The notes under the pieces are model-generated. The model saw nothing but the letters and a program-made list of their open reading frames with translations, was not told where the DNA came from and searched no databases. The translations under genes were made by a program, and so were the position numbers. Source: Trypanosoma brucei (taxonomy: Eukaryota). From it: a stretch of 64,000 nucleotides of DNA. The stretch spans positions 1,472,001-1,536,000 of the forward strand of contig CP000067.1 in assembly GCA_000002445.1 (NCBI GenBank), written 5' to 3'. Positions 1 to 43,497 of the stretch are shown one piece after another. Numbering within the stretch: position 1 is the first letter of the stretch; every line of letters begins with the position of its first letter.

Positions 1-3000
1 GAGGAATACGCCGCCGAACACGCTGAAATCCAAATGCGGAAGGGATTTTGTGACGACCCATACGGGAGGCAGAGAGAGGATACGGGAACAAATTACTACA
101 AAATAACCATCGAAGCAATGAGAAATACGGTGGGGCTTACCAAAGAGGGCGTGGTCAACCTTCAGGTGCAACATACAGGACGTGCTTGCGTGGTCTGACA
201 AGGCGGTGAAGGAACGTGAAATATATCCCTGACTTCCGACGAAACAAGAGGCAGCGATGGATATCACAAAGTTTCAAATAGGAGACCGAGGAGCATACAA
301 CGCTGACATGGCGACATGGCGAAGGTCGACGAGCAATGTAAGCGCGGAGCATGACTGAACATTTGCATGGCAGAAAGGCTTCGTCAGACACAGATGCAGA
401 AAGAAAATGATGCGGCAGAGGTTAAGGACCAAGTAAAACACGACACAGCATATGGGGGGAAATGTCAAGCAAGATCTGTTGTGTAATTTCTTTTTCAATA
501 AAATTGGAAGTTATGTTGTGTGGACGGTGAGTATGATATGCGAGGAGGGCAGTTGCGGAAAGGCTGAATGAAAATGACTGCTGTTGTGCTCCGTCGGGCA
601 AAGCCGCTGCTGGCTCAGAAGATATAGCAAAAGAATATCGTAAATTCATGAATAGCACATACAACCTCAAAGTATGCGGCAAGAATTCTGACGGCAAAGC
701 CGCCACCAGCACGGTAAAAGACTGCAACCCTCAAAACCATACCACAGTTATGATATGATTTCCCGCCCAATATGACAGTATACTTTTTGACATGCAGGAC
801 CTGAAGAAAAGGGAGATAATAGATGAGTAAAAGACAGTAAATCAAGAAGTTGAAGAAACAAAGGTGATAGTTGCTAGAAACACCTCACGAAAGCCGGAGA
901 GCCTTCGCGGATTCAGTATGTCCTACTTGATGCAGGGGGCGGTAATCTAACGCACACACGGTAGCACGATCCTGGAATTGTCATCGCCCCAGGAACAACT
1001 ACGGATGGAGGCACAAAGAGGTGAAACATAACAACGGAAAGCAGGCGGCGTTCAGGGTACTATTTGAAACTCCTCAGACAAGCCAGACTTACGTGGTGCA
1101 AAAACAAAAAATAGTGCACAGTCGGGAAGGGAAGTGAAGGGAGGTTCGCAACAACGGAAGAACAGAATACCGAGAGACGATCAGGCACTTCCTCCAATAC
1201 AAGAAACTCGTGCAATTCATCATGATATAGCTTCCAGCATTCAGTTCAGAAGGACAGTTAAGCCACAAAACAACGGCCACATAGACACAGGCGAGAAACA
1301 GTAAAACCCAGAGGGTGACAAAACATCTCGTTGCCAAGCGACCGAAACAAACCGAAATGTTGTGCCACTAAACGGGGATTAAGGTTCACTCGGCACTAAA
1401 GAATATATGCAGGGTAGCAGGAACCTGCATACGAATACACATGAAGGTAGGGGGAACGTTCTACTACTTGCTTGACAATTCTGTGGCCAAGCTGCTGAAG
1501 CTGTTCTCAAGGAACTCGGCACATGGAGAGTAAATGTACAGGAAGAGGGGGGAAAAGTTTCTCTGGAAGTGGTTGTCCGTTTCGGGAGTCAAACGTTGCT
1601 TAGGGTTCTGGATCTTTGAATATTCTTTAGAGATTATGACGGTCGCAAGCGTAGGTATGTTCTTCCGCTGTACCCTGGTCTAGTGGTCAAGTAGCGTCCG
1701 CGTCACAGATAGTACAGGGATCGGTCCCCGCGGCCGGCGAGTATTTAGCTTACACTAAGGATGAATCTGCCTCAACGTGGCGCTAGGGTTCAGGAACAGA
1801 AAAGAAATAAACTGGGAAGTCAAATGTTCCATCCAAACGGCGGCCGCAACACCGGATCTGACGCGCCCGCTCCGTGGGGAGAGAACTATTACTAAGTATT
1901 CCACGGTCCAGCGCCCTGCTCTGGTGTGGGAACCCTAATCCCTTATACAACTTCCGTCCGGGGAGGCAGATGGATATGGTAAACATGGTTCAAACGCAAC
2001 GTGGGAGGATCGAACGGGCGCCAAATGGAGACCGACCCCCTAGACACACGCACATACGGTCACCCAGCCGTGGGTGTCAATTCTCCAAGAAAAAAACAGG
2101 TGGTTTTAGTGGGTAGAAATGACAATCTCCAGAGCTGACCCCCACACTACCACGTTATCGTGGCGTGGTGTGCGTAAATGCATTTTCTCTTTGCCCTCGG
2201 GTGGACCGACTGCATGGTCCTGACGGTTGCGCGAGAGAAAATCAAATGAAAAAAATTGCTTTGTTCTTTGCGGTGCTTACCGATTTTTGGAGAAGTGCGG
2301 GTGTTAGGCCTGCCTGGCCATGTGTTTGTTCCGTTTAGAATGGTTGCATATTTTGGCGACGTTGAAGAAGCTGAACGTGTGGAGTTCTGTTGAGTTATAT
2401 TCTCGCGAGTATGGTGTACCAGACAAGTTACTTCGTTTGAGGCAGTCCTAGAGGCAGGGTGCGAGTTTGGAAGAAACAATTCTGGAGAGACTGAGGGTAG
2501 GGGACGTTGTTTTTGAAGGTAATTTCTTATCTATATAAGCCTTTTGTTCGCCGAGTATGTACCGGATAAGCTTCGTCAATCTTGAAGGTATTTAACAACC
2601 GCGGTGAGCGAGCTGTGGTTATTTAAGAGACTATTTTCGAAATCTGACGAAAGATGTGCCGTTTCCTTCGTCATTTCCTAAATCGATCTCATGCTGTAGC
2701 ACCCATTTCATACTTCAAATAAATTTTAGACGCCGCAGAGGAATATTATCGATTATTGAAGATCAAAATCAAAATTATGGAAGTCACTGTAGAAATATCA
2801 GATGTAAGACTACCGTGAAGGTGTGGGTGTTGGAGTGCCATCAATTTAATGCAGAAGGGGCAGAACGATGCAAAAAAAAAAATGTTAAGCGGTAGGCTGT
2901 AGTATGACTCAGCTTTAGAAGCGACGGTAAAGCAAAATAATCTGGGGAGTGCGTTAGATTAGAATGTTTTGCAAATACACGACACGTAGTGACATCAAAC

Positions 3001-5029
3001 TTTGCACTACCAAAGAAAAAAAAATAATAATAATAACAAATTAACGGCTTATCAAAACTAAGCCAAATAGCCTAGCAACAACAGAAGGATATGCCTTGTA
3101 GACAAAACTTCAAACTTTAGACGTATAACCATATTGATAAGACATATTCTGAAGCTCCGTTACTTCCAAACGTGCAAGGTGCACTGAAGGGTTTAAAAAT
3201 CAAAAGTATGCGCCGCCTGGAGATGGTGGCTGTCCTGCCGATACTACGTTAGTTGGAATCGTTGGCTCACTGTGAGGTGGAAAGCCAACCAGAAGAAGCA
3301 AGCGGCGAATATAACGCAAACACATATGAAGGAGTGATCGCAACTAAACCAGCCTACCCAGATAAAGAAGTCTCTGAATGATACAGCAAAGAATACAAGG
3401 TTTATCTTGATGGACTAACAAGACAAACTTACATGAGACGCAACAACTGCCCGAGGAAACAGGAAGCCTAGAGTTCAAATAACACAACGAATAACAAAGT
3501 GGGCAAAGTGAACTGGCATGCCTCAACCAACTGCAAAGCGTAACTCATAAGGACTTTTCGAACGTACAGCTAGAGCTCAGAAAGCATGCTGTACCTTATG
3601 GCGCACTAATGGAACCAGGCAGCAAGGCGACGAGGTACGGCAAAGGCCGTCACAAGCTGCATGCTCAAACAAGATAAACATAAGAGATGCCAAGGGGATG
3701 GGAAATTCTTGTAAAGTGGATATGTCTTAGGGAGCTGTTGGCATGATCTCAGGCACTAGAAGCCGAGTACAAAGGGACTTGCAATCACTGTGTGGTAATT
3801 ATAGTTTCTCTTGTTTCGCCGGCGGCGACCAACTAACGGACCTGAGCAAAAAGTGTGTCGATGGAGGAACGCAACTCAACCAAATCCCCATCGCCAACAT
3901 CAGGGAGAGAAGCAGAGACGCCTTTCCAACAAAGTTGGGTCACCAATCCACCGTGGCTCATGTACTGAGTGCATTCATTTCACCATTATGCTAAAATGTT
4001 TCCATCATCCATTTTATAAACTATCAGAATTTGGATAGAAAATATGCTAAAGTTTTAATGTTTTTTTTTTGGGGGGAGTTCGTGAAACTGTTGCATTCTA
4101 ATCGAGCTCTTTAAGATTTGCTTTCGTCTATTCTCCTCTATTTTCGCTATGGTCGCATGGTTTGAGCTCAAAAATAAGATTCGGAGAAAATTAAAAACTC
4201 GTCGAAAAACGAAATTTCGGTGATGATGAACATGGGTTTCTACGGTGGAGTCGACCTTTTAACATGTTGAACATATGAAAAACACAACCATTCAGAGTGA
4301 CAATTTACGTGTTTGAATTATTTCTATTGGATTAAAAGTTTAATATTCACTCTCATTTTCGTTTTTGAAGGGAAATGTTTTTAGACTAAATCGTTGAGAA
4401 CTGAGATTTTTTTTCTATTGCCACATACATAATACCTAACAGTTATGGCTTAATTGGATGCTAAGGTTATATTTGTGTAAAATGGAATAACTTAATTCCA
4501 AAAAAGTCACGATGTGACACTATATACTTGCATACAACCATGTCCCGGGGTGAATAATTGACGGCTTTCCACTAACACTGGTGGGGAAACAACATGACAG
4601 CGTGCAAGAAAAAAATTATAAAAGAGACAAACCGCCAGCTCTTATTTTTTTAAATGCGGGGACTAAGGGTGACATGCCATGTAGCGTTCGGAAAAGCAGG
4701 GGTGTTACACGTTGTGTCACGAAACTTTACTGAAAACTACAACGCAAATATCGCTAAGATATGATAACGGCAAGCTGATTTCAATTCTCGTAGCCTTGTA
4801 TGTCACAAACGTTGCTGACGTCCCGTAAACATAACATCTCCTCAGGGACCCGTGTATTAAGACATCTTTGGTTAAGTTGTTGAATTTGTTGTTAGGACAA
4901 CCGCCGTCTATTGCAGAACCCCAAATTACATCTATCACCTACAAATAAAAAGCCAAGTTCCAACCATCACCAACAACGAAGATAAAGTCACAAAAACAGC
5001 TCAACACATCCACGAAAGGAAAGGCACTA

Positions 5030-6559
5030 ATGGAAAGTCGATCCGATACCAAAGGAACGTCGCACATAGCTGTTGCAGCAGCCGTTCCAGTATTATTCAT
5101 GACGCTGATGAGGTGCGGCATGGCGCAAACAATAACGGAACCGTCTTCGGACAAAGTAACAAACCTCTGTACAGAGGCCAAGTATACAGCCCATCTGGCA
5201 GATCACATCGTAGCGGCGGCAGAAGAGCCGGAGCGCGAAATATCCGACATGCAAATTTATGCAGAGGCATGGAATCTCCTTGCCGCCAGCACAAACCAAA
5301 CAGACAAGCGTGCCGCGACATATGCCCTTGCTGCGTACATGTCCGCCGCGGCGGCAAAAGCAAAGCAGCTGCAAAACGGGAAATACAAAGCAGCAGTCTT
5401 GGCCGCTACCTACCTGCAAAGGAGATCAGCGCTGACACGAACATTGCAAGCTATGCGTGTAAAAGGCAAGACGGCTGTGGGACAGTTCACTAAAAAGCAG
5501 GGCGAAGAGGCATCATGTTCACACAAGGAAACGCCGACTTTAAGCGACGAAGGGGATTGCGGGCGACAGGATAATGCCATCAACCATCCTGAGTCAATTG
5601 CCATAGATTTAAGGACAGCGACTCACATCAAACTGGTACATGGCAGTAAGCTAAGACCACTGGAGTTAACGCACGAAGCTGATGTAAGAGAGACGACACC
5701 ATCGGAGCAAGCGCAAGTGAAAGCCACAGGTTGCAAGGCCGTGCTAAGAAGCGACTTCTATGTTACATTCATAGCATCAACTACAAAAAAGGAAGACAAA
5801 ACTGGAGTAACAGCTATTAAGATATTCGCGGGCGACGATGCAAATACAAGTTGTGCTGAGCTCAAAGACGCCACGAAGAAATCAGAAAAGGATAACGACC
5901 TACTGATCAACAAAATCTGCACCTACATAACAAAACCCGATCCGCAGATTATAACCATATCCAGTTTGACGCCAGCCATGTTAGCAAACACAACGGCAGT
6001 CCAAGTGGCGTTCAGAAGCTTCGTTCATGCAGCAACCGGTAAAGCGCCAAGCGACGCCGAGATTGAAATGCAACTTCAAAAACTTTACGGAGGGGACAAG
6101 CAACACTTCAAAAGAGACTTCGTGACAATTCTGACAACAAAGAATATGACATACCACACGGGCTCAGGATTTGTAACTGAAACATTCCTTGATGCAGCTA
6201 AAAACAACCACGCCCACAAGGTGCTGATCTATCTAAAAGGTCAAAGAGCGGCAGCACAGGCAAAACAACCAAGGACAAACGAGAGTGAAATCAACGGCCC
6301 GGTCTGCGGAGGTGAGGGCCAAGAGGAGTGCAAATTGGATGAAAAGAAAGACCCGGAGAAACCGAACGGAACTCAAATGCGGAAATGGCCTAAAGCACTC
6401 CAGTGGATGATCACACGACAAGGAGGAAATTGCAAAACAATACAGCAAGAAGATTGTAAAGAAGACTGTACATGGGATGAGGGAGCTTGTGACGGCGCAG
6501 TTGGCATTTCTGCTTCGATGAATATTTCTCTGTTCATGGCATTTTTGCTTCTAGCATAA
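5030..6559 (+). CDS. VSG-related / atypical VSG-like GPI-anchored surface glycoprotein, array copy 1 (type A), 509 aa
   Basis: Complete ORF. N-terminal hydrophobic signal (AVAAAVPVLFMTLMRCGMA). Alanine-rich heptad-like N-terminal region typical of the VSG A-type fold (NLCTEAKY..., AATYALAAYMSAAAAKAKQLQ...). Cys-rich C-terminal domain ending in a hydrophobic GPI-signal-like tail (GISASMNISLFMAFLLLA) that differs from canonical VSG C-termini. No 70-bp repeat upstream. Confidence 0.7.
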   Translation: MESRSDTKGTSHIAVAAAVPVLFMTLMRCGMAQTITEPSSDKVTNLCTEAKYTAHLADHIVAAAEEPEREISDMQIYAEAWNLLAASTNQTDKRAATYALAAYMSAAAAKAKQLQNGKYKAAVLAATYLQRRSALTRTLQAMRVKGKTAVGQFTKKQGEEASCSHKETPTLSDEGDCGRQDNAINHPESIAIDLRTATHIKLVHGSKLRPLELTHEADVRETTPSEQAQVKATGCKAVLRSDFYVTFIASTTKKEDKTGVTAIKIFAGDDANTSCAELKDATKKSEKDNDLLINKICTYITKPDPQIITISSLTPAMLANTTAVQVAFRSFVHAATGKAPSDAEIEMQLQKLYGGDKQHFKRDFVTILTTKNMTYHTGSGFVTETFLDAAKNNHAHKVLIYLKGQRAAAQAKQPRTNESEINGPVCGGEGQEECKLDEKKDPEKPNGTQMRKWPKALQWMITRQGGNCKTIQQEDCKEDCTWDEGACDGAVGISASMNISLFMAFLLLA

Positions 6560-7779
6560 AAACTTATTGGAAATACTTTATTGTAGCAAACATTAATTTT
6601 TTTCTGGAAATATCTTAATGTAGTGGAATATGCATTTTTATGGAAAGATCTTATTATACGAAACCGTATCTTTGTTGAATTATCTTGGATAAATTTACAT
6701 TCATCTTGGAAATATTTTATACAATTCTTAAATGTGCGTTTGTATTTCAACGCTTTTTGCAAACATGTGAAGACTTTGAGAGATCTTTTTTGTTGTTGTA
6801 CAAATTTGATGTTTGAATGTAAAGTGATATGTTGATGGAGTGTCAAAAGTGGGTGCCATTAGGATTTTTACTATTATGGTTTATTCAATTAATTTTATGT
6901 TTACCTTTGAAAATGTAAATATATGCAAATCTTCTCTAGTGTTGTGGCCGGGGAGTATAATGTAGTATGGTAACGGTTTACGAATGAGAAATGAGTGCTA
7001 TTCTGAAATTTTCTGTTTCGGTTTATTTGGTGTATCGTATGGATGTTAGTCAAGGTTATAAAAGTAATGGTAAGAGTGGTTGGGGTGAGGATTAGGATGT
7101 TGGTATATTTGAATAACAAGGTCTTCCAAAGGAGGAAGAGAGATAGACAAGGCAGTGAAGGGCTGCAGAGGTGTTGTGGCATGCATGGAAATGATATAGA
7201 TCTCTAAGGGAGTATCAGGTATGATTTTACTCGGGAAGGGGTTGCTGCTCATACTTGTGATTATATATTTCCTGAAGCGGTCAAATGTTTCACAACTTCC
7301 ATTAGAATAAAGTTTAGGAGAAGCAATAGGATGAGGGAAGCCCCCGCTGAATTGTTTGGCGGATATACAGTTTGATGAGTGGAAGGTTCGTTGTAGAAGC
7401 ACGCGTGCACGTCTCGCCCAATTGGTGAGAGAGCAGTAATGGCCGGATGCATTTGCCGTGAGTAACAACCCCAACAATGGATACAAAGGAGTTATTGTTC
7501 ATCATCGAGGTGTGACAACAGTAGTGGTGCATATATTTGTCGGCCCCTCGGATATGGAAAAGGGATCAAACGGTGCCGCTGGCATTGGAGGTTTTGTTGG
7601 TAATTCCTTAGAAATATCTTGCTGAAATTTGTTGAAGTTATTGAGACAACTATCTTTTCTATGTTACCCTACTATTTCATGTATTGCTTACTGGTAACAA
7701 CATAAAGTCCAATTTTTATCAACAGGGAAGTCAAGGACACCAAGGCAACGCAGCAACGTGGAAAAAGCTGGAGGAACTA

Positions 7780-9306
7780 ATGGAAAGTCGACCCGATACC
7801 AAAGGAATGTGCCACGCGACAGTGGCAGCAACTGTTCCAGTATTATTCATGACGCTGATGAGGTGCGGCATGGCGCAAACAGTAACGGAACCGTCTTCGG
7901 ACAAAGTAACAAACCTCTGTACAGAGGCCAAGTATACGGAATATTTGGCGAGTCGAATCGTAGCGGTAGCAGAGAGGCAGGAGCGCGAAATATCCGACAT
8001 GCAAATTTATTCAGAGGCATGGAATCTCCTTGCCGCCAGCACAAACCAAACAGACAAGCGTGCCGCGACATATGCCCTTGCTACGTACATGTCCACCGCG
8101 GCGGAAACAGCAAGGCGGGCACACGCTGGAAAATACAAAGCAGCAGTGGCAACTGCGAAGTTGCTACACAGGAGGTCGGCGCTAACGCGTACGTTGCTAA
8201 CGATGAGAATCCGGGGAAAGACAATAGTTGGAATAAGCAAAGAGGCCAACGGCATAGGAATATGCCCTGGTGAAGCAACACCAACATTAAGCGGCGACAG
8301 TAGTTGCGCGCACCGAACCAATGACAGCAACCAACCAGAAGGTATTGCTGTGAACTTGAAGGCAGCGACGCACATAAAATTGCTAAATAGCAGTGCACTA
8401 AGACCTCGGGGGTTAACCCATCTAGTTGAGATAAAAGAAACGAAGTGGCCAGCAAGCAGAGAAGCATTAGTCGAGAGGTGCGGGGGCTTGTTGGGAGGTG
8501 ACCATTATGTTAAATTCGAAGCATCAACCACAGGAGAAGACAGCAAAATCATAGTAGAGCCGATTAAGATATTTGAGGGTGACGATGCGGAGAAAAACTG
8601 CGCTGTCGTACAGAAAGAATCTATGAAATCAGAAAAGGACAATGATCTACTGATCAACAAAATATGCACCTACATAACAATACTCGACCCGCAGATTATA
8701 ACCATATCCAGTTTGACGCCTGCCATGTTAGCAAACACGAGCACAGTCCAAATGGCGTTCAAAAGCTTCGTTCATGCAGCAACCGGTAAAGCACCTAGCG
8801 ACGGCGAAATCGAGTTGCAACTTAAGAGCCTTTACGGTGGGGACAAGCAAAACTTCACCAGAGACTTCGTAAAAATTCTGTGGACGAAGAACGTGACATA
8901 CCACACGGGCGCAGGATTCAAAACTGAGACGCTCCTTGATGCGGTTAGAAACAAAAACGCACAGAGGGCTCTAATCTATCTGGAAGATCAAAGACCAGCA
9001 GAGGAGTCAAAACAGACACAAACGGACGAGAGTGAAATCAACGGCCCGGTCTGCGGAGGTGAGGGCCAAGAGGAGTGCAAATTGGATGAAAAGAAAGACC
9101 CGGAGAAACCGAACGGAACTCAAATGCGGAAATGGCCTAAAGCACTCCAGTGGATGATCACACGACAAGGAGGAAATTGCAAAACAATACAGCAAGAAGA
9201 TTGTAAAGAAGACTGTACATGGGATGAGGGAGCTTGTGACGGCGCAGTTGGCATTTCTGCTTCGATGAATATTTCTCTGTTCATGGCATTTTTGCTTCTA
9301 GCATAA
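7780..9306 (+). CDS. VSG-related / atypical VSG-like surface glycoprotein, array copy 2 (type B). Likely start is the MESRPDTKG ATG at 7780; the in-frame upstream ATG at 7684 gives the 540-aa track ORF.
   Basis: Paralog of copy 1 with the same signal peptide and C-terminal 120 aa and a divergent central region. Start chosen by alignment with copies 1 and 4. Confidence 0.65.
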   Translation: MESRPDTKGMCHATVAATVPVLFMTLMRCGMAQTVTEPSSDKVTNLCTEAKYTEYLASRIVAVAERQEREISDMQIYSEAWNLLAASTNQTDKRAATYALATYMSTAAETARRAHAGKYKAAVATAKLLHRRSALTRTLLTMRIRGKTIVGISKEANGIGICPGEATPTLSGDSSCAHRTNDSNQPEGIAVNLKAATHIKLLNSSALRPRGLTHLVEIKETKWPASREALVERCGGLLGGDHYVKFEASTTGEDSKIIVEPIKIFEGDDAEKNCAVVQKESMKSEKDNDLLINKICTYITILDPQIITISSLTPAMLANTSTVQMAFKSFVHAATGKAPSDGEIELQLKSLYGGDKQNFTRDFVKILWTKNVTYHTGAGFKTETLLDAVRNKNAQRALIYLEDQRPAEESKQTQTDESEINGPVCGGEGQEECKLDEKKDPEKPNGTQMRKWPKALQWMITRQGGNCKTIQQEDCKEDCTWDEGACDGAVGISASMNISLFMAFLLLA

Positions 9307-10526
9307 AAACTTATTGGAAATACTTTATTGTAGCAAACATTAATTTTTTTCTGGAAATATCTTAATGTAGTGGAATATGCATTTTTATGGAAAGATCTTA
9401 TTATACGAAACCGTATCTTTGTTGAATTATCTTGGATAAATTTACATTCATCTTGGAAATATTTTATACAATTCTTAAATGTGCGTTTGTATTTCAACGC
9501 TTTTTGCAAACATGTGGAAATTTTGAGAGATCTTTTTTGTTGTTGTACAAATTTGATGTTTGAATGTAAAGTGATATGTTGATGGAGTGTCAAAAGTGGG
9601 TGCCATTAGGATTTTTACTATTATGGTTTATTCAATTAATTTTATGTTTACCTTTGAAAATGTAAATATATGCAAATCTTCTCTAGTGTTGTGGCCGGGG
9701 AGTATAATGTAGTATGGTAACGGTTTACGAATGAGAAATGAGTGCTATTCTGAAATTTTCTGTTTCGGTTTATTTGGTGTATCGTATGGATGTTAGTCAA
9801 GGTTATAAAAGTAATGGTAAGAGTGGTTGGGGTGAGGATTAGGATGTTGGTATATTTGAATAACAAGGTCTTCCAAAGGAGGAAGAGAGATAGACAAGGC
9901 AGTGAAGGGCTGCAGAGGTGTTGTGGCATGCATGGAAATGATATAGATCTCTAAGGGAGTATCAGGTATGATTTTACTCGGGAAGGGGTTGCTGCTCATA
10001 CTTGTGATTATATATTTCCTGAAGCGGTCAAATGTTTCACAACTTCCATTAGAATAAAGTTTAGGAGAAGCAATAGGATGAGGGAAGCCCCCGCTGAATT
10101 GTTTGGCGGATATACAGTTTGATGAGTGGAAGGTTCGTTGTAGAAGCACGCGTGCACGTCTCGCCCAATTGGTGAGAGAGCAGTAATGGCCGGATGCATT
10201 TGCCGTGAGTAACAACCCCAACAATGGATACAAAGGAGTTATTGTTCATCATCGAGGTGTGACAACAGTAGTGGTGCATATATTTGTCGGCCCCTCGGAT
10301 ATGGAAAAGGGATCAAACGGTGCCGCTGGCATTGGAGGTTTTGTTGGTAATTCCTTAGAAATATCTTGCTGAAATTTGTTGAAGTTATTGAGACAACTAT
10401 CTTTTCTATGTTACCCTACTATTTCATGTATTGCTTACTGGTAACAACATAAAGTCCAATTTTTATCAACAGGGAAGTCAAGGACACCAAGGCAACGCAG
10501 CAACGTGGAAAAAGCTGGAGGAACTA

Positions 10527-12053
10527 ATGGAAAGTCGACCCGATACCAAAGGAATGTGCCACGCGACAGTGGCAGCAACTGTTCCAGTATTATTCATGAC
10601 GCTGATGAGGTGCGGCATGGCGCAAACAGTAACGGAACCGTCTTCGGACAAAGTAACAAACCTCTGTACAGAGGCCAAGTATACGGAATATTTGGCGAGT
10701 CGAATCGTAGCGGTAGCAGAGAGGCAGGAGCGCGAAATATCCGACATGCAAATTTATTCAGAGGCATGGAATCTCCTTGCCGCCAGCACAAACCAAACAG
10801 ACAAGCGTGCCGCGACATATGCCCTTGCTACGTACATGTCCACCGCGGCGGAAACAGCAAGGCGGGCACACGCTGGGAAATACAAAGCAGCAGTGGCAAC
10901 TGCGAAGTTGCTACACAGGAGGTCGGCGCTAACGCGTACGTTGCTAACGATGAGAATCCGGGGAAAGACAATAGTTGGAATAAGCAAAGAGGCCAACGGC
11001 ATAGGAATATGCCCTGGTGAAGCAACACCAACATTAAGCGGCGACAGTAGTTGCGCGCACCGAACCAATGACAGCAACCAACCAGAAGGTATTGCTGTGA
11101 ACTTGAAGGCAGCGACGCACATAAAATTGCTAAATAGCAGTGCACTAAGACCTCGGGGGTTAACCCATCTAGTTGAGATAAAAGAAACGAAGTGGCCAGC
11201 AAGCAGAGAAGCATTAGTCGAGAGGTGCGGGGGCTTGTTGGGAGGTGACCATTATGTTAAATTCGAAGCATCAACCACAGGAGAAGACAGCAAAATCATA
11301 GTAGAGCCGATTAAGATATTTGAGGGTGACGATGCGGAGAAAAACTGCGCTGTCGTACAGAAAGAATCTATGAAATCAGAAAAGGACAATGATCTACTGA
11401 TCAACAAAATATGCACCTACATAACAATACTCGACCCGCAGATTATAACCATATCCAGTTTGACGCCTGCCATGTTAGCAAACACGAGCACAGTCCAAAT
11501 GGCGTTCAAAAGCTTCGTTCATGCAGCAACCGGTAAAGCACCTAGCGACGGCGAAATCGAGTTGCAACTTAAGAGCCTTTACGGTGGGGACAAGCAAAAC
11601 TTCACCAGAGACTTCGTAAAAATTCTGTGGACGAAGAACGTGACATACCACACGGGCGCAGGATTCAAAACTGAGACGCTCCTTGATGCGGTTAGAAACA
11701 AAAACGCACAGAGGGCTCTAATCTATCTGGAAGATCAAAGACCAGCAGAGGAGTCAAAACAGACACAAACGGACGAGAGTGAAATCAACGGCCCGGTCTG
11801 CGGAGGTGAGGGCCAAGAGGAGTGCAAATTGGATGAAAAGAAAGACCCGGAGAAACCGAACGGAACTCAAATGCGGAAATGGCCTAAAGCACTCCAGTGG
11901 ATGATCACACGACAAGGAGGAAATTGCAAAACAATACAGCAAGAAGATTGTAAAGAAGACTGTACATGGGATGAGGGAGCTTGTGACGGCGCAGTTGGCA
12001 TTTCTGCTTCGATGAATATTTCTCTGTTCATGGCATTTTTGCTTCTAGCATAA
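10527..12053 (+). CDS. VSG-related / atypical VSG-like surface glycoprotein, array copy 3 (type B). Protein identical to copy 2; upstream in-frame ATG at 10431.
   Basis: ORF translation is identical to copy 2. The only nucleotide difference seen in the CDS is a synonymous GGA/GGG at 8127 vs 10874. Confidence 0.65.
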   Translation: MESRPDTKGMCHATVAATVPVLFMTLMRCGMAQTVTEPSSDKVTNLCTEAKYTEYLASRIVAVAERQEREISDMQIYSEAWNLLAASTNQTDKRAATYALATYMSTAAETARRAHAGKYKAAVATAKLLHRRSALTRTLLTMRIRGKTIVGISKEANGIGICPGEATPTLSGDSSCAHRTNDSNQPEGIAVNLKAATHIKLLNSSALRPRGLTHLVEIKETKWPASREALVERCGGLLGGDHYVKFEASTTGEDSKIIVEPIKIFEGDDAEKNCAVVQKESMKSEKDNDLLINKICTYITILDPQIITISSLTPAMLANTSTVQMAFKSFVHAATGKAPSDGEIELQLKSLYGGDKQNFTRDFVKILWTKNVTYHTGAGFKTETLLDAVRNKNAQRALIYLEDQRPAEESKQTQTDESEINGPVCGGEGQEECKLDEKKDPEKPNGTQMRKWPKALQWMITRQGGNCKTIQQEDCKEDCTWDEGACDGAVGISASMNISLFMAFLLLA

Positions 12054-13238
12054 AAACTTATTGGAAATACTTTATTGTAGCAAACATTAATTTTTTTCTG
12101 GAAATATCTTAATGTAGTGGAATATGCATTTTTATGGAAAGATCTTATTATACGAAACCGTATCTTTGTTGAATTATCTTGGATAAATTTACATTCATCT
12201 TGGAAATATTTTATACAATTCTTAAATGTGCGTTTGTATTTCAACGCTTTTTGCAAACATGTGGAAATTTTGAGAGATCTTTTTTGTTGTTGTACAAATT
12301 TGATGTTTGAATGTAAAGTGATATGTTGATGGAGTGTCAAAAGTGGGTGCCATTAGGATTTTTACTATTATGGTTTATTCAATTAATTTTATGTTTACCT
12401 TTGAAAATGTAAATATATGCAAATCTTCTCCGGTGTTGTGGCCGGGGAGTATAATGTAGTATGGTAACGGTTTACGAATGAGAAATGAGTGCTATTCTGA
12501 AATTTTCTGTTTCGGTTTATTTGGTGTATCGTATGGATGTTAGTCAAGGTTATAAAAGTAATGGTAAGAGTGGTTGGAGTGACGATTAGGATGTTGGTAC
12601 ATTTGAATAACAAGGTCTTCCAAGGGAGGAAGAGATATGTATAAAGTACTGAAGGGCTGCAGAGGTGTTGTGTTAGGCATGATTGTGCACGGGAAGGAGT
12701 TGCTGCCGAAGCTTCTGATATACATGTGTTTCCAGAAACGATCAAATGCTGCGGAGCTTACGTGGGAAGAAAGTTTCGGAAGAGTTATGGGATGAGGGAA
12801 ATTCCCACTGCATTGTTTGAGCAGATTCACAACATGATAAGTGGAAGGTTGGTTGGAGAAGTGCGCAGGTACGCCACACCCAGTTGGCAAGAGATTGCAA
12901 TAGTCGGGTGCATGCCGGGAGTGATGACCCCACTGATAGTCAGGTCGCTAATAACGCTGAGGTTTGGAAAAAGCACACCTGAATTGATTTATCGGTGTAT
13001 CGAAGATCGAAAACATGATTAAGGCTCCCCAGTTACTGCATTCCCTCAAGGGGTTGCCGTTAAAAATATTTTTGTGCAAACTGTTTAAGTTATTATTGGG
13101 ACAACCGCTCTCTATTGCGGAACCACAAATTTCATCTATGACATACCTATAAATAAAAAGCCAAGTTCCAATCATCATCAACAACGAAGATAAAGGCACA
13201 AAGGCAACGAAACACATTACACGGAGGGAAAGGAGCCG

Positions 13239-14768
13239 ATGCAAGTTCAACGCACTACCAAAGAAGTGTTGCACAAAGCTGTTGCAGCAGCCGTGCCCGT
13301 GTTATTCATGACGCTGATGAGGTGCGGCATGGCGCAAACAGTAACGGAACCGTCTTCGGACAAAGTAACAAACCTCTGTACAGAGGCCAAGTATACAGCC
13401 CATCTGGCAGATCACATCGTAGCGGCGGCAGAAGAGCCGGAGCGCGAAATATCCGACATGCAAATTTATGCAGAGGCATGGAATCTCCTTGCAGCCAGCA
13501 CAAACCAAACAGACAAGCGTGCCGCGACATATGCCCTTGCCACGTACATGTCCACTGCGGCGGCAAAAGCAAAGCAGCTGCAAAACGGGAAATACAAAGC
13601 AGCAGTCTTGGCCGCTACCTACCTGCAAAGGAGATCAGCGCTGACACGAACATTGCAAGCTATGCGTGTAAAGGGACAGTCAGGAGCGGGACAAGTCACT
13701 AACCGACAAGGCGTCATCTCATCATGTTCACACAAGGAAACACCGACGTTAAGCGACGAAGGGGATTGCGGGCGACAAGGCAGTGATGCCAACCATCCAG
13801 AATCAATTGCCGTAAATTTAAGGACAGCGACTCACCTCAAACTGTTAGACAGCAGCAGGCTAAGACCGCTAGCGTTAAATCACTTAGCCGAAGTAGAAGG
13901 AACAGCGCCACCAGCAAAAACGGAAGTACAAGCCGAAGGCTGCAAGGCTGTGATAAGCATTGGCTATTATGCTAAATTCACAGCATCGACAAAAGAAAGT
14001 GACGACAACAGTGAAGTCAAAGCCATTAAGATATTCGCGGGTGACAATGCAAGTACAAATTGCGCTCTTCTGCACAACGCCGAAAGGAAATCAGAAAAGG
14101 ATAACGACCTACTGATCAACAAAATATGCAACTACATAAACAAACCTGATCCTCAGATAATAACCATATCCAATTTGACGCCTGCCATGTTAGCAAACAC
14201 GAGCACAGTCCAAATGGCGTTCAAAAGCTTCGTTCATGCAGCAACCGGTAAAGCACCTAGCGACGGCGAAATCGAAAACCAGCTTAAGAGCCTTTACGGA
14301 GGGGATGAGGTGACATTTACCAATGACTTCATAAAAATTCTGTGGACGAAGAACGTGACGTACCACACTGGCTCAGGATTCGTAACTGAGACATTTCTTG
14401 ATGCAGCTAAAAACGAAAACGCGCACAAGGTGCTCATCTATCTAAAAGGTCAAAGAGCGGCAGCACAGGCAAAACAACCAAGGACAAACGAGAGTGAAAT
14501 CAACGGCCCGGTCTGCGGAGGTGAGGGCCAAGAGGAGTGCAAATTGGATGAAAAGAAAGACCCGGAGAAACCGAACGGAACTCAAATGCGGAAATGGCCT
14601 AAAGCACTCCAGTGGATGATCACACGACAAGGAGGAAATTGCAAAACAATACAGCAAGAAGATTGTAAAGAAGACTGTACATGGGATGAGGGAGCTTGTG
14701 ACGGCGCAGTTGGCATTTCTGCTTCGATGAATATTTCTCTGTTCATGGCATTTTTGCTTCTAGCATAA
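13239..14768 (+). CDS. VSG-related / atypical VSG-like surface glycoprotein, array copy 4 (type A with type-B segments, mosaic), 509 aa
   Basis: Complete ORF. The N-terminal 140 aa and the upstream region match copy 1. One internal block (TPAMLANTSTVQMAFKSFVHAATGKAPSDGEIE) matches copies 2/3 rather than copy 1. The C-terminal 120 aa is shared by all copies. Confidence 0.7.
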   Translation: MQVQRTTKEVLHKAVAAAVPVLFMTLMRCGMAQTVTEPSSDKVTNLCTEAKYTAHLADHIVAAAEEPEREISDMQIYAEAWNLLAASTNQTDKRAATYALATYMSTAAAKAKQLQNGKYKAAVLAATYLQRRSALTRTLQAMRVKGQSGAGQVTNRQGVISSCSHKETPTLSDEGDCGRQGSDANHPESIAVNLRTATHLKLLDSSRLRPLALNHLAEVEGTAPPAKTEVQAEGCKAVISIGYYAKFTASTKESDDNSEVKAIKIFAGDNASTNCALLHNAERKSEKDNDLLINKICNYINKPDPQIITISNLTPAMLANTSTVQMAFKSFVHAATGKAPSDGEIENQLKSLYGGDEVTFTNDFIKILWTKNVTYHTGSGFVTETFLDAAKNENAHKVLIYLKGQRAAAQAKQPRTNESEINGPVCGGEGQEECKLDEKKDPEKPNGTQMRKWPKALQWMITRQGGNCKTIQQEDCKEDCTWDEGACDGAVGISASMNISLFMAFLLLA

Positions 14769-15549
14769 AAACTTATTGGAAATACTTTATTGTAGCAAAC
14801 ATTAATTTTTTTCTGGAAATATCTTAATGTAGTGGAATATGCATTTTTATGGAAAGATCTTATTATACGAAACCGTATCTTTGTTGAATTATCTTGGATA
14901 AATTTACATTCATCTTGGAAATATTTTATACAATTCTTAAATGTGCGTTTGTATTTCAACGCTTTTTGCAAACATGTGGAAATTTTGAGAGATCTTTTTT
15001 GTTGTTGTACAAATTTGATGTTTGAATGTAAAGTGATATGTTGGTGGAATGTCGAAAATGGTTGCTATTTAGAATATTTTTGCTATTATGGTTTATTCGA
15101 AGAAATTTATGTTTACCTTTGAAGATGTGAAAATGTTTAAATGTTTTCAAATGTTTTTGACTTGTGGGTATAACGTGGTAAAGTGATAGGGGTGTGAAAA
15201 ATGAGTGTGATTATGAAAACTTGCCATTTTGGTTTATTTTTTTGTAATAGATATTAAGAGTAGTTTAAGGTTATGATATTAATAGCAGTATAGTAATAGT
15301 GTGTGTGCCATATAAGTGCACATACTAACATTATGGTAAGAGTGGTGGTGCAGAACGACTGGAGACAAAATAGAAGCAGTTAAGCTGATGCCAAGGGCAC
15401 AGTGGGAGTTAGCAAGTGAGTGGGAGAGGAAGAGGACGAGGAGGATATTATTAAAACAAAAGCAGAAACACAGGTAGATGGAGAGAAAAGGTAATGAAAT
15501 ATGCGCAGTTTTTTTCATTGTACATTTATCCTGCTCGTGCTGCGGTAGA

Positions 15550-17905
15550 CTAGCTACTGCCCCTGTGGCTCTGCAAATTAGCAGGGGATGTTTAGCGCAA
15601 CCGCAATTTCATCTTCACTTGATCCAATGATACCTTGAAACTGATTGAGTATTCTGTAGATTTAGCTTCACGGGTACGTTTACGCATGGCTCTTGCAGTG
15701 CCAACCCCTAAAGACTTCGCTGCCGCAGAGTGGTGGTCAGTGGAATCCAACTCCGTTGGCGATCGGTGCCTCTTCACGGCTCAAGTGGGCCCAGATTTTT
15801 TCTCTAAGATTGGGGGGGGGGAGATGGTCTCTCTAGCTTGAAGAGCTCCTTCAGGAAGCTGGCTAGTTGTGTGCTGAAGAACACTTCCCCGTTCTTCAGG
15901 GTTTCTAGACCATGCTTTTCCCTTTAGCACTTGCAAGCTTGGGCATTCAAAGAGGTGCGCCGCAGCCTCGTTACACTCAACCTTCAGCAAGTAATGCTCA
16001 TTCTCCTTCCTCAGTTGGCCCTGCTTCGCCTGTATGTGCATCGTCAGGAACTTCTTTAGTGTGCAATTCATTGGGCAGTATGGGCACTGGAGTGATCTTT
16101 TCAGGAGAGGTGTCACCGCTACCGTGCCGTCCTTTAGTTTTCGTTTCACTGTCGTGGCGTGCGCGTATGCCAAACCAGTGAGCACCACTGCTTGTACACA
16201 CTGCTGTTTCCACCGCACACATTGTCCATTCCCTCTTTGCCTTCTGTGTGGCGGACTACCCGAAGACGCTTAGGCGGTCTTTCCCCATTGTCCCTTCCTG
16301 CTGACTCCAATGACTCACTCACCTCACTCTGTGCCTGAGCCTCTGCTCTCACTACCTTTCGCTTCGGCTTCACGCGTGGCTGAGGACGCAATGACTCGTC
16401 GTGACCCAGGTGCTTGGTCGGTATGCGTTGCGGTAACCATCTGTAATGATACTGCTTTCTACAAATGGAACACGCCACTGTAACTGACTGCTTCGCCACG
16501 TCCGAGTCTTCAGAGTTCGTGTTCGAGGTTGGTTCGTACTTGTGCCTGGTGGGCCATGTCTTGCTTTTGAGGACGCGTTGGCACCTGTAGCATACAAATT
16601 CCCTTTTATCCTGCTCCTCCTGCTCTGCCTCGCCATCACTACCGGACACGTCTTGTGGCTTCATAGCGCCGCGCGTTAACTGCTTTTCCGTGTGCTTCTG
16701 CAGCCACGCGTATACAGTGTACTTAATTGCGCACCAGCGGCACTTGAACGCTTTGCCATCATCGGCCCCATAATCCTCCCTAGCCCTTTTCGGACGCTCC
16801 TCCACGGCTGCCACTATATCTGAAAGTTGCTGTGCCATATGCTTCACGAGCAGCCCACGCCGCTCAAAGACATCGCACACATGTGACATCTGTACCCATT
16901 CTTATGCGTCTGCGCCGCACGCTTAGCTTTGTTGGTCAGAGCTAATGCACAATCCCTCTCCAGACCATGAATCTTCAGTAGGTGCACCACGCCAGCCTGT
17001 TGCCGCGCGCAAACCACGTTGCACAATGAGCAAATGATCGGGTCGATCAGCCTGGTTGCTATCCCAGGATCTGGTGCGTTCGCATTGTCCGCTGCTGACT
17101 CCGCCTCCGGGCGCTCTTCTGCTGTGTCGCTGCGTGGTTCCTGTGTGTCGCACCGTATGCATCCAAGCTGGTCCGTCTTGCGTGTGAGCGCCCTGTGGAG
17201 CCGTCCGAAATGCTTCGAGGTGCCTGTTCCGAACTGCGCCAGCACCGACTCGCCCAGACGCTCCAGCCTTGTGTGCTTCGGTGCGGCCCGAACGTAGTCG
17301 AGTAGCGCACTCCGATGCGTACGCTGCATGCGGCCCTTCTTGAAGGCCTTGTACATCGCATTCCAGACCTGTCACCACACACCCGTCGCTATGTCAGTGA
17401 TCCACGCGGGATACAACTACGGCTTTGCGTTTCCCTGCTCAGCTGCCTTGTCAGCTGCTTCATTTCGTGATGTTGGTAGCCAGCAACGCTAAAGCAAGCC
17501 GCCTCTCCAGGCGTCATTCTTGTCTCGCTCAACAGACAAAAGGCGATCCGCTCATCAACAAGGGTTTTGTGGAGTGCTAATCTCTTTCCTTGAGTTAGCC
17601 CGGCGCAGTTCCACTGCATCCCGCACAACGACGGGCCGGGATTCTCTTCCACATCACCGGACAGCAGCATCTTAGTGCGGATGATACTGCTGATGGCACG
17701 CTGGCACGTGCCCAGGGACCGACAAATGAAAAACGGTGTCCCAGCAAGACGCTGCTGATCCCTGTGCTGTATGATGCCGTAGCCGGAGCACAGCAGTGTT
17801 CCCCATGAGAAGAACGCTGCTGGCTCTTGGCTTCCCCCGATGATACGGGGTACTTGACCCTGGCACCACGTTGAGGTGGCCGGCATCTCTAGGGGTACTA
17901 TTACT
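15550..17905 (-). mobile_element. ingi/L1Tc-clade non-LTR retrotransposon remnant, internally deleted (5' region with 2A peptide and start of the AP-endonuclease domain joined to C-terminal C2H2 zinc-finger region; the RT domain is absent)
   Basis: Minus-strand ORF 17389-17886 encodes ...RTKMLLSGDVEENPGPSLCGMQWNCAGL..., a 2A-like motif followed by an APE-like start, as described for L1Tc/ingi. The 5' end (rc of 17,815-17,880) contains ...cctcaacgtggtgccagggtcaagtaccccgtatcatcgggggaagccaagagccagcagcg, consistent with the conserved 5' signature of ingi/RIME-type elements. ORFs 16844-17356, 16146-16889 and 15781-16218 carry repeated C-x2-C...H-x3-H motifs (FKCRWCAIKYTVYAWLQKH, FVCYRCQRVLKSKTWPTRH, CPYCPMNCTLKKFLTMH). 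Frameshifts occur between the ORFs. Exact ends are uncertain. Confidence 0.65.
17632..17655 (-). other. 2A-like self-processing peptide motif D-V-E-E-N-P-G-P within the retroelement ORF
   Basis: The reverse complement of 17632-17655 is gatgtggaagagaatcccggcccg = DVEENPGP, an exact match to the canonical 2A C-terminal consensus D(V/I)ExNPGP. Confidence 0.8.
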
Positions 17906-31299: not shown

Positions 31300-31392
31300 A
31301 CGAAAGTTATTCTATATCTATATCTATATTTATATCTATATCTATATCTATATCTATATTTATATCTATATCTATATCTATATCCAAAGCAT
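31300..31392. repeat. Microsatellite (TATATC/TATATT)n
   Basis: Direct read of the sequence. Confidence 0.95.
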
Positions 31393-43495: not shown

Positions 43496-43497
43496 AA

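What the first reader, a model, noticed from the sequence alone, without database searches (positions are those of the whole stretch)
5400..6100. Hypervariable central segment and a mosaic copy within the VR-like array (segmental gene conversion)
Between copies, residues ~145-330 are highly divergent. Examples are KTAVGQFTKKQGEEASCS vs KTIVGISKEANGIGICPG vs QSGAGQVTNRQGVISSCS, and DVRETTPSEQAQVKATGCKAV vs VEIKETKWPASREALVERCGG. The flanks are near-identical. Copy 4 carries a type-B block (TPAMLANTSTVQMAFKSFVHAATGKAPSDGEIE, also FxKILWTKNVTYHTG) inside an otherwise type-A gene. Copy 1 has the type-A version (…NTTAVQVAFRSFVHAATGKAPSDAEIE, FVTILTTKNMTYHTG). This patchwork resembles VSG mosaic formation and suggests diversifying selection on an exposed central region, with conserved scaffold ends.
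Basis: seen in the sequence. Interest (0 to 1): 0.55.

Follow-up and report, generated by a model that had tools for sequence, protein, structure and literature searches.

The report
Mosaic tandem atypical VSG genes
Four tandem coat-protein-like (VSG family) genes of Trypanosoma brucei share identical tails but carry old, very different versions of the outward-facing "head", and one copy is a demonstrable patchwork of its neighbours; this is real, but it is an ordinary case of the recombination already known to shuffle this gene family.

Summary
The window is T. brucei TREU927 chromosome 4. The four genes are the annotated "atypical VSGs" Tb927.4.5400-5430. Copies 2 and 3 are duplicates, so there are three distinct sequences.

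- **Divergence:** codons 141-300 differ by 23-38% at the DNA level, against 7.5-13% elsewhere (Fisher p 1e-16 to 1e-28). The last 93 codons plus 210 bp of 3' flank are identical in all four copies.
- **Mosaic:** copy 4 carries a type-B tract. It matches copy 2 exactly over 102 nt, and is B-like over codons 315-373 (max-chi2 60.9, 0 of 300 permutations).
- **Structure:** the variable segment maps to the beta-sheet top lobe of a class A1a VSG fold, with VSGsur as the closest structure.

Synonymous divergence rises with non-synonymous divergence (central dS 0.5-1.3, dN/dS 0.30-0.43, as in the flanks). Variable blocks are shared intact with genes of other strains. The best explanation is recombination among old paralogues: unequal crossover plus short-tract gene conversion. 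This homogenises scaffold and tail and reshuffles head cassettes.

The genes lack the VSG 3'UTR 16-mer and a 70-bp-repeat motif. Published data show mRNA in all life stages. Interest is low: a new example of a known kind.

The parts
5030..6559 (+). Copy 1 (c1), 509 aa. Annotated 'VSG, atypical' (UniProt Q580P7); the first gene of the Tb927.4.5400-5430 cluster. Type-A central segment.
   Evidence: ORF; 100% match to the TREU927 protein; cluster described in PMC2771046.
7780..9306 (+). Copy 2 (c2), 508 aa, type-B central segment.
   Evidence: The TTG-extended ORF from 7684 is a mechanical artefact; the ATG at 7780 aligns with the other copies.
10527..12053 (+). Copy 3 (c3), 508 aa. A recent duplicate of c2, with 1 nt difference in the CDS at 8130/10877.
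13239..14768 (+). Copy 4 (c4), 509 aa (UniProt Q580P4). A mosaic: mostly type A with a type-B tract. Its 5' end matches the T. equiperdum and T. b. gambiense genes.
5450..5929 (+). Hypervariable segment of c1 (codons 141-300), the predicted beta-sheet top lobe. Equivalent segments: c2 8200-8676, c3 10947-11423, c4 13659-14138.
   Evidence: Divergence; family entropy 1.16 bits against 0.39-0.59 elsewhere; aligned to the VSGsur top lobe at about residues 140-260; five predicted strands.
14174..14275 (+). Type-B conversion tract in c4. It is identical to c2 8712-8813 over 102 nt, and B-like out to 14355 (codon 373), with a third-type patch at codons 346-364.
   Evidence: The polarity (c4 is the recipient) follows from 19 sites where c1 groups with T. 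equiperdum and T. b. gambiense against c2 and c4.
6279..6769 (+). A 491-bp block identical in all four copies (codons 417-509 plus 210 bp of 3' flank). Also at 9026-9516, 11773-12263 and 14488-14978. This marks concerted evolution of the C-terminal domain and 3'UTR.
   Evidence: The same region differs by 3-11% (nt) from the T. equiperdum and T. b. gambiense genes, and by 12-22% (aa) from family members of other strains.
5133..5283 (+). Exact c1/c4 identity tract of 151 nt (= 13342-13492). Further tracts: 5348-5463 = 13557-13672 (116 nt) and 6227-6556 = 14436-14765 (330 nt).
   Evidence: run test p 0.002 to <2e-4.
6279..12430 (+). Stretch with a 2747-bp period at about 99.9% identity: the 3' end of c1 plus intergenic region, c2, intergenic region, c3, and the start of the next spacer. 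It is the product of a recent unequal crossover or tandem duplication.

Best explanation
The interval encodes the top lobe (membrane-distal head) of the N-terminal domain of four tandem class-A1a VSG-family paralogues. They sit at the boundary between the chromosome-4 core and the right subtelomeric VSG array of T. brucei TREU927.

The pattern is a product of homologous recombination among old paralogues, not of locally accelerated amino-acid change. Three processes account for it.

1. Unequal crossover changes copy number. It produced the near-identical c2/c3 pair. The syntenic locus has one copy in T. equiperdum and one assembled copy in T. b. gambiense.
2. Short-tract gene conversion, with identical tracts of about 100-330 bp, uses the conserved helical scaffold, the C-terminal domain and the 3'UTR as homology. 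It therefore keeps homogenising those parts.
3. The top-lobe sequences are two or more ancient haplotype classes, also found in other strains. They are too divergent (up to about 50% nt) to be homogenised, and they are moved or retained as blocks, which gives mosaics such as c4.

Shown here: the tract structure, the phylogenetic incongruence, the dS profile, the sharing of blocks across strains, and the fold assignment.

Inferred:
- The RAD51/BRCA2-dependent double-strand-break repair mechanism, by analogy with experimentally induced VSG mosaics.
- That selection on an exposed surface helps to keep the head classes distinct.
For: Identity of the genes:
- c1 is a 100% match to a TREU927 'VSG, atypical' protein on a 1,590,432-bp contig.
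- Accessions are Q580P7 (c1) and Q580P4 (c4).
- The cluster Tb927.4.5400/5420/5430, plus a duplicate, is described in PMC2771046.

Mosaic structure:
- Max chi-square 60.9, reached in 0 of 300 permutations, and run tests with p<2e-4.
- Exact identity tracts.
- With five DNA sequences, all 10 possible splits occur and 42% of site pairs fail the four-gamete test. The PHI-like statistic is 0.367 against 0.424 +/- 0.008 in permutations (p<5e-4).

Age rather than rate:
- dS in codons 141-300 is 1.33 (c1/c2), 1.00 (c2/c4) and 0.51 (c1/c4).
- dS in codons 21-140 is 0.05-0.36, and it is 0 in codons 421-509.
- dN/dS is 0.30-0.43 in the centre.

Between subspecies, the syntenic T. equiperdum and T. b. 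gambiense genes show:
- dS 0.013 in codons 1-120
- dS 0.84 in codons 211-270
- dS 0.06 in codons 301-390
- dS 0 in codons 451-510

Block sharing across strains:
- EATRO1125 VSG-195 equals VSG-4121 over residues 1-186, then equals the T. equiperdum protein over residues 186-324.
- c4 residues 141-176 are 94-100% identical to EATRO1125 VSG-1646.
- In the centre, sequences cluster by type across strains. In the C-terminal domain, the TREU927 copies are 100% identical to each other but only 78-88% identical to all other members.

Concerted evolution: a 491-bp block with zero differences extends 210 bp into non-coding DNA.

Structure:
- A profile of the family hits VSGsur at E 3e-11 over the full length.
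- The AF2 model has pLDDT 72.8, with Foldseek TM 0.72-0.76 to VSGsur and 0.72 to VSG397.
- The VSGsur top lobe is about residues 140-260.
- Q580P4 and VSG485 have already been placed in class A1a.

Known mechanism: templated, RAD51/BRCA2-dependent mosaics with short inserts, with donors usable anywhere in the genome (PMC13233330; PMC12137147).
Against: - There are only three distinct sequences in the window and five DNA sequences in all, so tract polarity and the number of events are coarse.
- dS above about 1 is saturated under Nei-Gojobori, so ratios in the centre are imprecise.
- The single copies in T. equiperdum and T. b. gambiense could be chimeras left by array contraction, or, for T. 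b. gambiense, a collapsed assembly (gap inside the gene). Their central difference need not be a conversion event at an orthologous gene, although it still requires recombination between paralogues.
- dN/dS in the most variable sub-block (codons 211-270) is higher (0.29-0.75) than in most other segments. Some positive selection at individual surface sites is therefore not excluded.
- The T. b. gambiense genome paper states that conserved VSG islands are not subject to frequent gene conversion.
Confidence: 0.85

Rival explanations
1. Diversifying (positive) selection by point mutation on an exposed surface created the hypervariable centre, while the scaffold stayed conserved.
For: - The segment is the top lobe, the presumed antigenic or ligand face.
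- Within it, predicted strands are less variable (0.76 bits) than coil (1.21 bits) and one helix (1.56 bits).
- dN/dS is highest in codons 211-270, at 0.29-0.75.
Against: - dN/dS is below 1 in every region and pair. The one exception is codons 1-20 of c1/c4, in the signal peptide.
- Synonymous and third-position divergence rise in parallel.
- Variable blocks occur intact in other strains rather than being unique.
- Flank identity extends into non-coding DNA. Constraint on the protein cannot explain that.
Confidence: 0.1
2. Differential purifying selection alone: the scaffold and C-terminal domain are strongly constrained and the head is weakly constrained, with no recombination involved.
For: - Invariant Cys, Gly and Pro residues and strand residues are embedded in the variable segment.
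- The helices have low entropy.
Against: - dS is 0 across 93 codons plus 210 non-coding bp in all four copies, yet that region differs by 3-11% from the T. equiperdum and T. b. gambiense genes.
- The breakpoint, run and four-gamete tests are significant.
- dS varies about 60-fold within one gene between subspecies.
Confidence: 0.03
3. Assembly artefact: tandem repeats were mis-joined or collapsed, which created an apparent duplicate (c2 = c3) and chimeric copies.
For: - Tandem units of 2.7 kb are hard to assemble.
- The T. b. gambiense assembly has a gap inside its copy.
Against: - The c2 and c3 units differ at a few positions, and their flanks diverge in an orderly way.
- The three distinct proteins are deposited separately.
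- A microarray study treated them as four genes.
- The same kind of mosaicism appears in independent strain repertoires and in a long-read T. equiperdum assembly.
Confidence: 0.02

Closest known systems
Mosaic VSG formation by segmental gene conversion (Hall, Wang & Barry 2013, PMC3708902; Smith et al. 2026, PMC13233330; Keneskhanova et al. 2025, PMC12137147)
   Same: - Same gene superfamily.
- Templated exchange of short tracts between closely related family members.
- Exchange is bounded by stretches of identity.
- The outcome is new combinations in the N-terminal domain.
   Different: - Known mosaics are somatic events in the single active telomeric expression site during infection, with mean inserts of about 41-70 bp.
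- Here the mosaics are fixed in the germline, in a non-telomeric tandem array, and the tracts are 100-330 bp.
- The mechanism is inferred here, not observed.
VSG archive substructure and high-identity VSG subfamilies (Marcello & Barry 2007, Genome Res; recalled from memory, paper not held)
   Same: Sets of closely related silent VSGs whose relatedness varies along the gene and which favour mosaic formation.
   Different: - These four genes lie outside the subtelomeric array, on the opposite strand.
- They lack the 16-mer and a 70-bp-repeat motif.
- mRNA is reported for them in all life stages.
VSG-related (VR) genes and other VSG-derived non-variant proteins (SRA, TgsGP, HpHbR)
   Same: - VSG fold.
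- Position internal to the chromosome or at its boundary.
- Expression outside the expression-site system.
- No cassette-flanking elements.
   Different: - The genes are annotated 'VSG, atypical', not VR.
- No function is known.
- Membership of the VR clade was not tested.
VSGsur and class A1a VSGs (Zeelen et al. 2021; Dakovic et al. 2023, PMC10501684)
   Same: - Closest solved structure by sequence profile (E 3e-11) and by fold (TM 0.72-0.76).
- Five-strand beta-sheet top lobe at about residues 140-260.
- Cysteines are distributed along the rod.
- Q580P4 and VSG485 have already been modelled as class A1a.
   Different: - Only 17-19% sequence identity.
- The C-terminal GPI signal and first C-terminal sub-domain are non-canonical.
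- No evidence of suramin binding.
Concerted evolution of tandem surface-antigen or multigene arrays
   Same: - Paralogues within one genome are identical where orthologues in relatives differ.
- The homogenised block crosses the coding/non-coding boundary.
   Different: Homogenisation is confined to the scaffold and tail. The head escapes it.

Membership tests
VSG superfamily, class A1a N-terminal domain | Three-helix-bundle N-terminal domain with a beta-sheet top lobe; closest to VSGsur and VSG397 | tested here: met
   - Profile against the PDB hits VSGsur at E 3e-11, aligned over 7-436 and 5-444.
- The AF2 model has pLDDT above 90 over most of residues 31-415 outside the top lobe, with five strands in 145-264.
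- Foldseek gives VSGsur E 9e-14 with TM 0.72-0.76, and VSG397 TM 0.72.
- Q580P4 is listed as class A1a in PMC10501684.
VSG superfamily | Cysteine-rich VSG C-terminal domain (Pfam PF10659) | tested here: met
   - c2 scores E 3.4e-6 (27.8 bits, cutoff 21.4) and c4 scores E 8.6e-6.
- c1 has the identical residues 417-509 but was not listed, most likely a filter effect.
- The first Cys sub-domain is truncated relative to P0010 and P0012 (read directly from the sequence).
Canonical (archive/cassette) VSG gene | Conserved 16-mer TGATATATTTTAACAC in the 3'UTR | tested here: not met
   - No match with up to 3 mismatches on the + strand anywhere in 1-20 kb.
- 9 matches with up to 2 mismatches lie behind the minus-strand VSGs at 20-60 kb.
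- It is also absent behind the T. equiperdum copy.
Canonical (archive/cassette) VSG gene | 70-bp repeat upstream of the gene | tested here: inconclusive
   - The 70-bp-repeat fragment GTTGTGAGTGTG has 7 minus-strand hits at 20.5-46.7 kb, one unrelated + strand hit at 45.2 kb, and none in 1-20 kb.
- The motif was recalled from memory, and two longer recalled motifs found nothing anywhere in the window.
- Absence is therefore likely but not rigorously shown.
Canonical (archive/cassette) VSG gene | Canonical C-terminal GPI-addition signal (17- or 23-residue types, such as ...SNSFVINKAPLLLAFSLALLNF) | tested here: not met
   - The C-terminus is ...CDGAVGISASMNISLFMAFLLLA in all copies.
- The array VSGs in the same window have canonical tails (read directly).
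- A hydrophobic tail exists, so GPI anchoring is possible but unverified.
VSG-related (VR) genes | Non-telomeric position and expression independent of the expression site | tested here: met
   - Position: convergent with, and outside, the minus-strand VSG array.
- Expression: taken from PMC2771046, group D, similar mRNA levels in all stages. It was not measured here.
VSG-related (VR) genes | Membership of the VR phylogenetic clades defined by Marcello & Barry 2007 | not tested
   - No named VR sequences were available.
- The source annotation says 'VSG, atypical', and Jensen et al. list these genes separately from VRs.
Segmental gene conversion (mosaic) products | Significant breakpoints and phylogenetic incongruence along the gene, with identifiable donor-like sequences | tested here: met
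   - Max chi-square, run tests and the PHI-like test.
- The donor-like tract c2 8712-8813.
- Family-wide block sharing.
Segmental gene conversion (mosaic) products | RAD51/BRCA2-dependent, break-induced, templated repair | not testable with these tools
   Known for expression-site VSGs. Here it is inference only.
Diversifying selection on an antigenic surface | dN/dS > 1 in the variable segment | tested here: not met
   - dN/dS is 0.30-0.43 in codons 141-300.
- dN/dS is 0.29-0.75 in codons 211-270.
- dS is itself 0.5-1.3.

The most novel reading that the evidence does not exclude
The array is not part of the antigenic-variation archive. It would be a constitutively Pol II-transcribed, VSG-derived surface-protein family, VR-like and missing the 16-mer, the 70-bp repeat and the canonical GPI signal.

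Its beta-sandwich head would be kept polymorphic, and would be reshuffled by cassette exchange, for a non-coat function. One possibility is host- or vector-ligand binding, in the way ESAG6/7, SRA or HpHbR evolved from the VSG fold.

Alternatively, the array could be a transcribed reservoir of top-lobe cassettes, internal to the chromosome core, for mosaic formation in class A1a VSGs.
Probability: 0.15. Interest if true: 0.55.

Novelty: new member of a known kind. Interest (0 to 1): 0.25.

Why it matters
The array is a clean, small natural example of how the VSG family partitions recombination. The scaffold, C-terminal domain and 3'UTR are homogenised, while top-lobe cassettes persist across strains and are exchanged as blocks.

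[quoted passage not shown] At this island the syntenic gene differs between subspecies by dS 0.84 in the head and 0.01 in the first 120 codons.

Published data show mRNA from these genes in all life stages, and the genes lack VSG cassette elements. They would therefore be a tractable place to ask what 'atypical' VSGs do. None of this changes current understanding of antigenic variation.

Tried and rejected
1. **First AF2 run.** The 13-sequence family alignment gave pLDDT 30.5, which is unusable. It was replaced by a 52-sequence alignment that included distant VSGs.
2. **Profile search for more family members.** A search of 5.8 billion proteins added only one T. b. gambiense fragment. The family is small.
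3. **70-bp-repeat motifs.** Two motifs recalled from memory found nothing anywhere in the window, so they say nothing either way. Only the short GTTGTGAGTGTG fragment worked as a marker.
4. **Marcello & Barry 2007.** The paper could not be retrieved. Statements about it rest on memory.
5. **Other searches in the window.**
   - Tandem Repeats Finder does not report the 2.7-kb array, because its longest period is 500.
   - There are no tRNA or Rfam hits near the array.
   - tblastn found no further family members or pseudogene donors.
6. **Hypermutation of the centre.** Considered and rejected, because the variable blocks are shared intact between strains.
7. **Site-wise selection models.** Not run: there are too few DNA sequences, and pervasive recombination would bias them.
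Full report
**What is there**

The window is Trypanosoma brucei brucei TREU927 DNA. Copy 1 is a 100% match to a protein annotated 'variant surface glycoprotein (VSG, atypical), putative' on a 1,590,432-bp contig. Accessions are Q580P7 for c1, Q580P4 for c4, and two entries sharing one sequence for c2 and c3.

Four plus-strand genes lie in tandem:
- c1 5030-6559
- c2 7780-9306
- c3 10527-12053
- c4 13239-14768

They are 509, 508, 508 and 509 codons long. They are convergent with a minus-strand array of canonical VSGs and VSG fragments that begins near 18-20 kb.

Jensen et al. 2009 (PMC2771046) describe exactly this cluster: Tb927.4.5400.5420.5430 and a fourth gene identical to .5420. They place it just 5' of, and opposite to, the right-hand subtelomeric VSG cluster of chromosome 4, and report similar mRNA levels in all life-cycle stages.

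**Checking the observation**

The interval 5400-6100 is codons 124-357 of c1.

c2 and c3 differ by one nucleotide in the CDS, and by three over one full 2747-bp repeat period compared in register. The comparison therefore rests on three sequences.

Nucleotide divergence in codons 141-300 is 0.38 (c1/c2), 0.23 (c1/c4) and 0.36 (c2/c4). Elsewhere it is 0.125, 0.075 and 0.128. Fisher p ranges from 1e-16 to 2e-28, and third positions alone are also significant.

A 491-bp block is identical in all four copies. It covers codons 417-509 and 210 bp past the stop codon: 6279-6769, 9026-9516, 11773-12263 and 14488-14978. The N-terminal flank is near-identical only between c1 and c4.

**The mosaic copy**

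Among sites where c4 agrees with only one of c1 or c2, 27 of 30 in codons 315-373 are c2-like, against 53 of 246 elsewhere. The two-breakpoint maximum chi-square is 60.9 and was never reached in 300 permutations. GENECONV-style run tests give p<2e-4 for c2/c4 codons 315-345 and for c1/c4 codons 109-145.

Exact identity tracts are:
- 102 nt for c2/c4 (8712-8813 = 14174-14275)
- 151, 116 and 330 nt for c1/c4

Codons 346-364 of c4 match neither neighbour. They carry a motif (FTNDFIK) that also occurs in Lister 427 VSG-485, so at least three sources contribute to c4.

I added DNA of the syntenic genes from T. equiperdum (L001) and T. b. gambiense (L002). With these, all ten possible splits of five sequences occur and 42% of informative site pairs fail the four-gamete test. 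A PHI-like statistic is 0.367, against 0.424 +/- 0.008 under permutation (p<5e-4). At 19 sites in codons 321-370, c1 groups with the two outgroup genes against c2 and c4. This identifies c4 as the recipient.

**Selection or age?**

Nei-Gojobori estimates for codons 141-300 are:

| Pair | dS | dN | dN/dS |
|---|---|---|---|
| c1/c2 | 1.33 | 0.40 | 0.30 |
| c2/c4 | 1.00 | 0.39 | 0.39 |
| c1/c4 | 0.51 | 0.22 | 0.43 |

The flanks give dN/dS 0.23-0.44, but with dS of only 0.05-0.36, and dS is zero in the tail. In the most variable sub-block (codons 211-270) the ratio reaches 0.29-0.75 and stays below 1. dS there is saturated, which if anything inflates the ratio.

The centre is thus deeply diverged at silent sites too. 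It is older, not evolving faster at replacement sites.

The single syntenic genes of T. equiperdum and T. b. gambiense make the same point:
- dS 0.013 in codons 1-120
- dS 0.30 in codons 121-210
- dS 0.84 in codons 211-270
- dS 0.06 in codons 301-390
- dS 0 in codons 451-510

A roughly 60-fold range of dS within one gene cannot come from mutation and selection alone.

**Family-wide picture**

Searches of 5.8 billion proteins found only 14 relatives:
- the TREU927 proteins themselves
- one T. equiperdum protein
- two T. b. gambiense fragments, from one gene split by an assembly gap
- three Lister 427 VSGnome entries (438, 485, 1767)
- five EATRO1125 entries (1646, 195, 4121, 137, 5101)

Mosaicism is pervasive. 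EATRO1125 VSG-195 is identical to VSG-4121 over residues 1-186, then identical to the T. equiperdum protein over residues 186-324. c4 residues 141-176 are 94-100% identical to VSG-1646.

In the central segment the proteins fall into two trans-strain classes, with VSG-195 a hybrid:
- A: c1, c4, T. equiperdum, T. b. gambiense, 1646, 1767
- B: c2, 4121, 438, 485, 137, 5101

In the C-terminal domain the TREU927 copies are 100% identical to one another, but only 78-88% identical to every other member. This is the classic signature of concerted evolution in one part of a gene and long-lived paralogue lineages in another.

**Copy number**

In T. equiperdum the flanks are collinear with window 1-5030 and 14769-17468, around a single gene. 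T. b. gambiense also shows one copy, interrupted by a 101-N gap with overlapping ends, so collapse in that assembly cannot be excluded.

The stretch with a 2747-bp period at about 99.9% identity (roughly 6279-12430) marks a recent unequal crossover or duplication in TREU927.

**Structure**

A profile of the family hits only VSGsur among solved structures. The hit is E 3e-11 and colinear over residues 7-436 and 5-444.

A first AF2 run was unusable. A second run, with 52 sequences including distant VSGs, gave pLDDT 72.8. The helical scaffold and bottom lobe score above 90, and residues 141-270 score 48-77 and contain five strands.

Foldseek places the model closest to VSGsur (TM 0.72-0.76) and VSG397 (TM 0.72).

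In VSGsur, residues about 140-260 form the five-strand top-lobe 'head', which makes an intermolecular beta-sandwich. Residues 304-326 lie on the bottom lobe. The hypervariable segment is therefore the membrane-distal head, and the c4 type-B tract lies in the bottom-lobe and third-helix part.

Within the head, predicted strands and invariant Cys163, Cys177, Cys235 and Cys275 are conserved, while loops and one helix vary. Dakovic et al. 2023 had already modelled Q580P4 (c4) and VSG485 as class A1a with VSGsur.

**Are they ordinary VSGs?**

- The 3'UTR 16-mer is present behind the minus-strand VSGs: 9 hits with up to 2 mismatches, against 0.07 expected. It is absent behind all four copies even at 3 mismatches, and absent behind the T. 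equiperdum copy.
- A 70-bp-repeat fragment occurs seven times on the minus strand in the array and never in 1-20 kb. That motif came from memory, so this result is indicative only.
- The C-terminal tail (…GISASMNISLFMAFLLLA) is not a canonical VSG GPI signal.
- Published microarray data show constitutive mRNA.

Together these make 'VR-like' a fair description of behaviour. The annotation is 'atypical VSG', and VR-clade membership was not tested.

**Mechanism**

The anatomy fits repeated homologous recombination among tandem paralogues:
- Unequal crossover changes copy number.
- Short-tract conversion starts and resolves in the conserved scaffold, C-terminal domain and 3'UTR, and homogenises them.
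- Head sequences differ by up to about 50% at the DNA level. They resist homogenisation and travel or persist as blocks.

Experimental work shows that breaks in a transcribed VSG with homologous templates are repaired by templated, RAD51/BRCA2-dependent segmental conversion. Inserts are short and bounded by short identities. Donors are usable anywhere in the genome and need neither 70-bp repeats nor UTRs (PMC13233330; PMC12137147). Applying that mechanism to this silent-archive-external, constitutively transcribed array is inference.

Selection may help to keep head classes distinct, but that is not demonstrated.

**Verdict**

The gene-conversion and mosaic reading is supported, and so is exposure of the variable part. 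Diversifying selection is not supported by the proposed test.

The locus is annotated and its expression is published. VSG mosaicism and subfamily structure are well known. The specific dissection is a new example rather than a new kind. It comprises the top-lobe cassettes, the concerted evolution of the tail, and the contrast with the statement that VSG islands escape gene conversion. Interest is low to moderate.

Noticed in passing
window 43496-43580: An interstitial telomere-type repeat, (AACCCT) x 13.8, lies about 150 bp 3' of the 16-mer (43731-43746) of the minus-strand VSG at 43810-45360. It may be a relic of a formerly telomeric VSG now embedded in the array.
   Followed up: no
window 34459-35271 (-): A 270-aa ORF with a galactosyltransferase (PF01762) match at E 3.8e-6 sits among the subtelomeric VSGs. 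It is probably a glycosyltransferase gene or pseudogene fragment.
   Followed up: partly
window 15781-17886 (-): A GC-rich (54%) block of overlapping minus-strand ORFs, one with a weak C2H2 zinc-finger hit, lies at the strand switch between the four-gene array and the VSG array. The block is syntenic in T. equiperdum, where a nearby gene has a weak reverse-transcriptase hit. It is likely a degenerate retroelement.
   Followed up: partly
window 6560-6769 and the equivalent in each unit: None of the four tandem genes has the VSG 3'UTR 16-mer, even at 3 mismatches. The convergent array VSGs do have it. The 70-bp-repeat fragment GTTGTGAGTGTG is likewise confined to 20.5-46.7 kb.
   Followed up: yes
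L001 10001-11530 and L002 10001-11964: The syntenic locus holds a single family gene in T. equiperdum and in T. b. gambiense. The T. b. gambiense copy is split by a 101-N assembly gap with overlapping ends, which yields two annotated 'fragment' proteins (P0011, P0014). Copy number therefore differs between subspecies, or the array is collapsed in the T. b. gambiense assembly.
   Followed up: partly
window 6279-6559 (C-terminal domain, all copies): The C-terminal domain is 100% identical among the TREU927 copies but only 78-88% identical (aa) to family members of other strains. Its first Cys sub-domain is truncated relative to EATRO1125 VSG-137 and VSG-5101. Pfam PF10659 was reported for c2 and c4 but not for c1, although the residues are identical, which points to a search-filter effect.
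   Followed up: partly
window 31311-31384 and 49025-49083: Simple repeats, (TCTATA) x 12 and (TAT) x 19, lie in spacers of the VSG array.
   Followed up: no
window 18335-18841 (-): A weak tblastn match (22% over 169 aa, E 1e-4) of c1 residues 255-418. It is a VSG pseudogene fragment at the proximal edge of the subtelomeric array, not a close family member.
   Followed up: no
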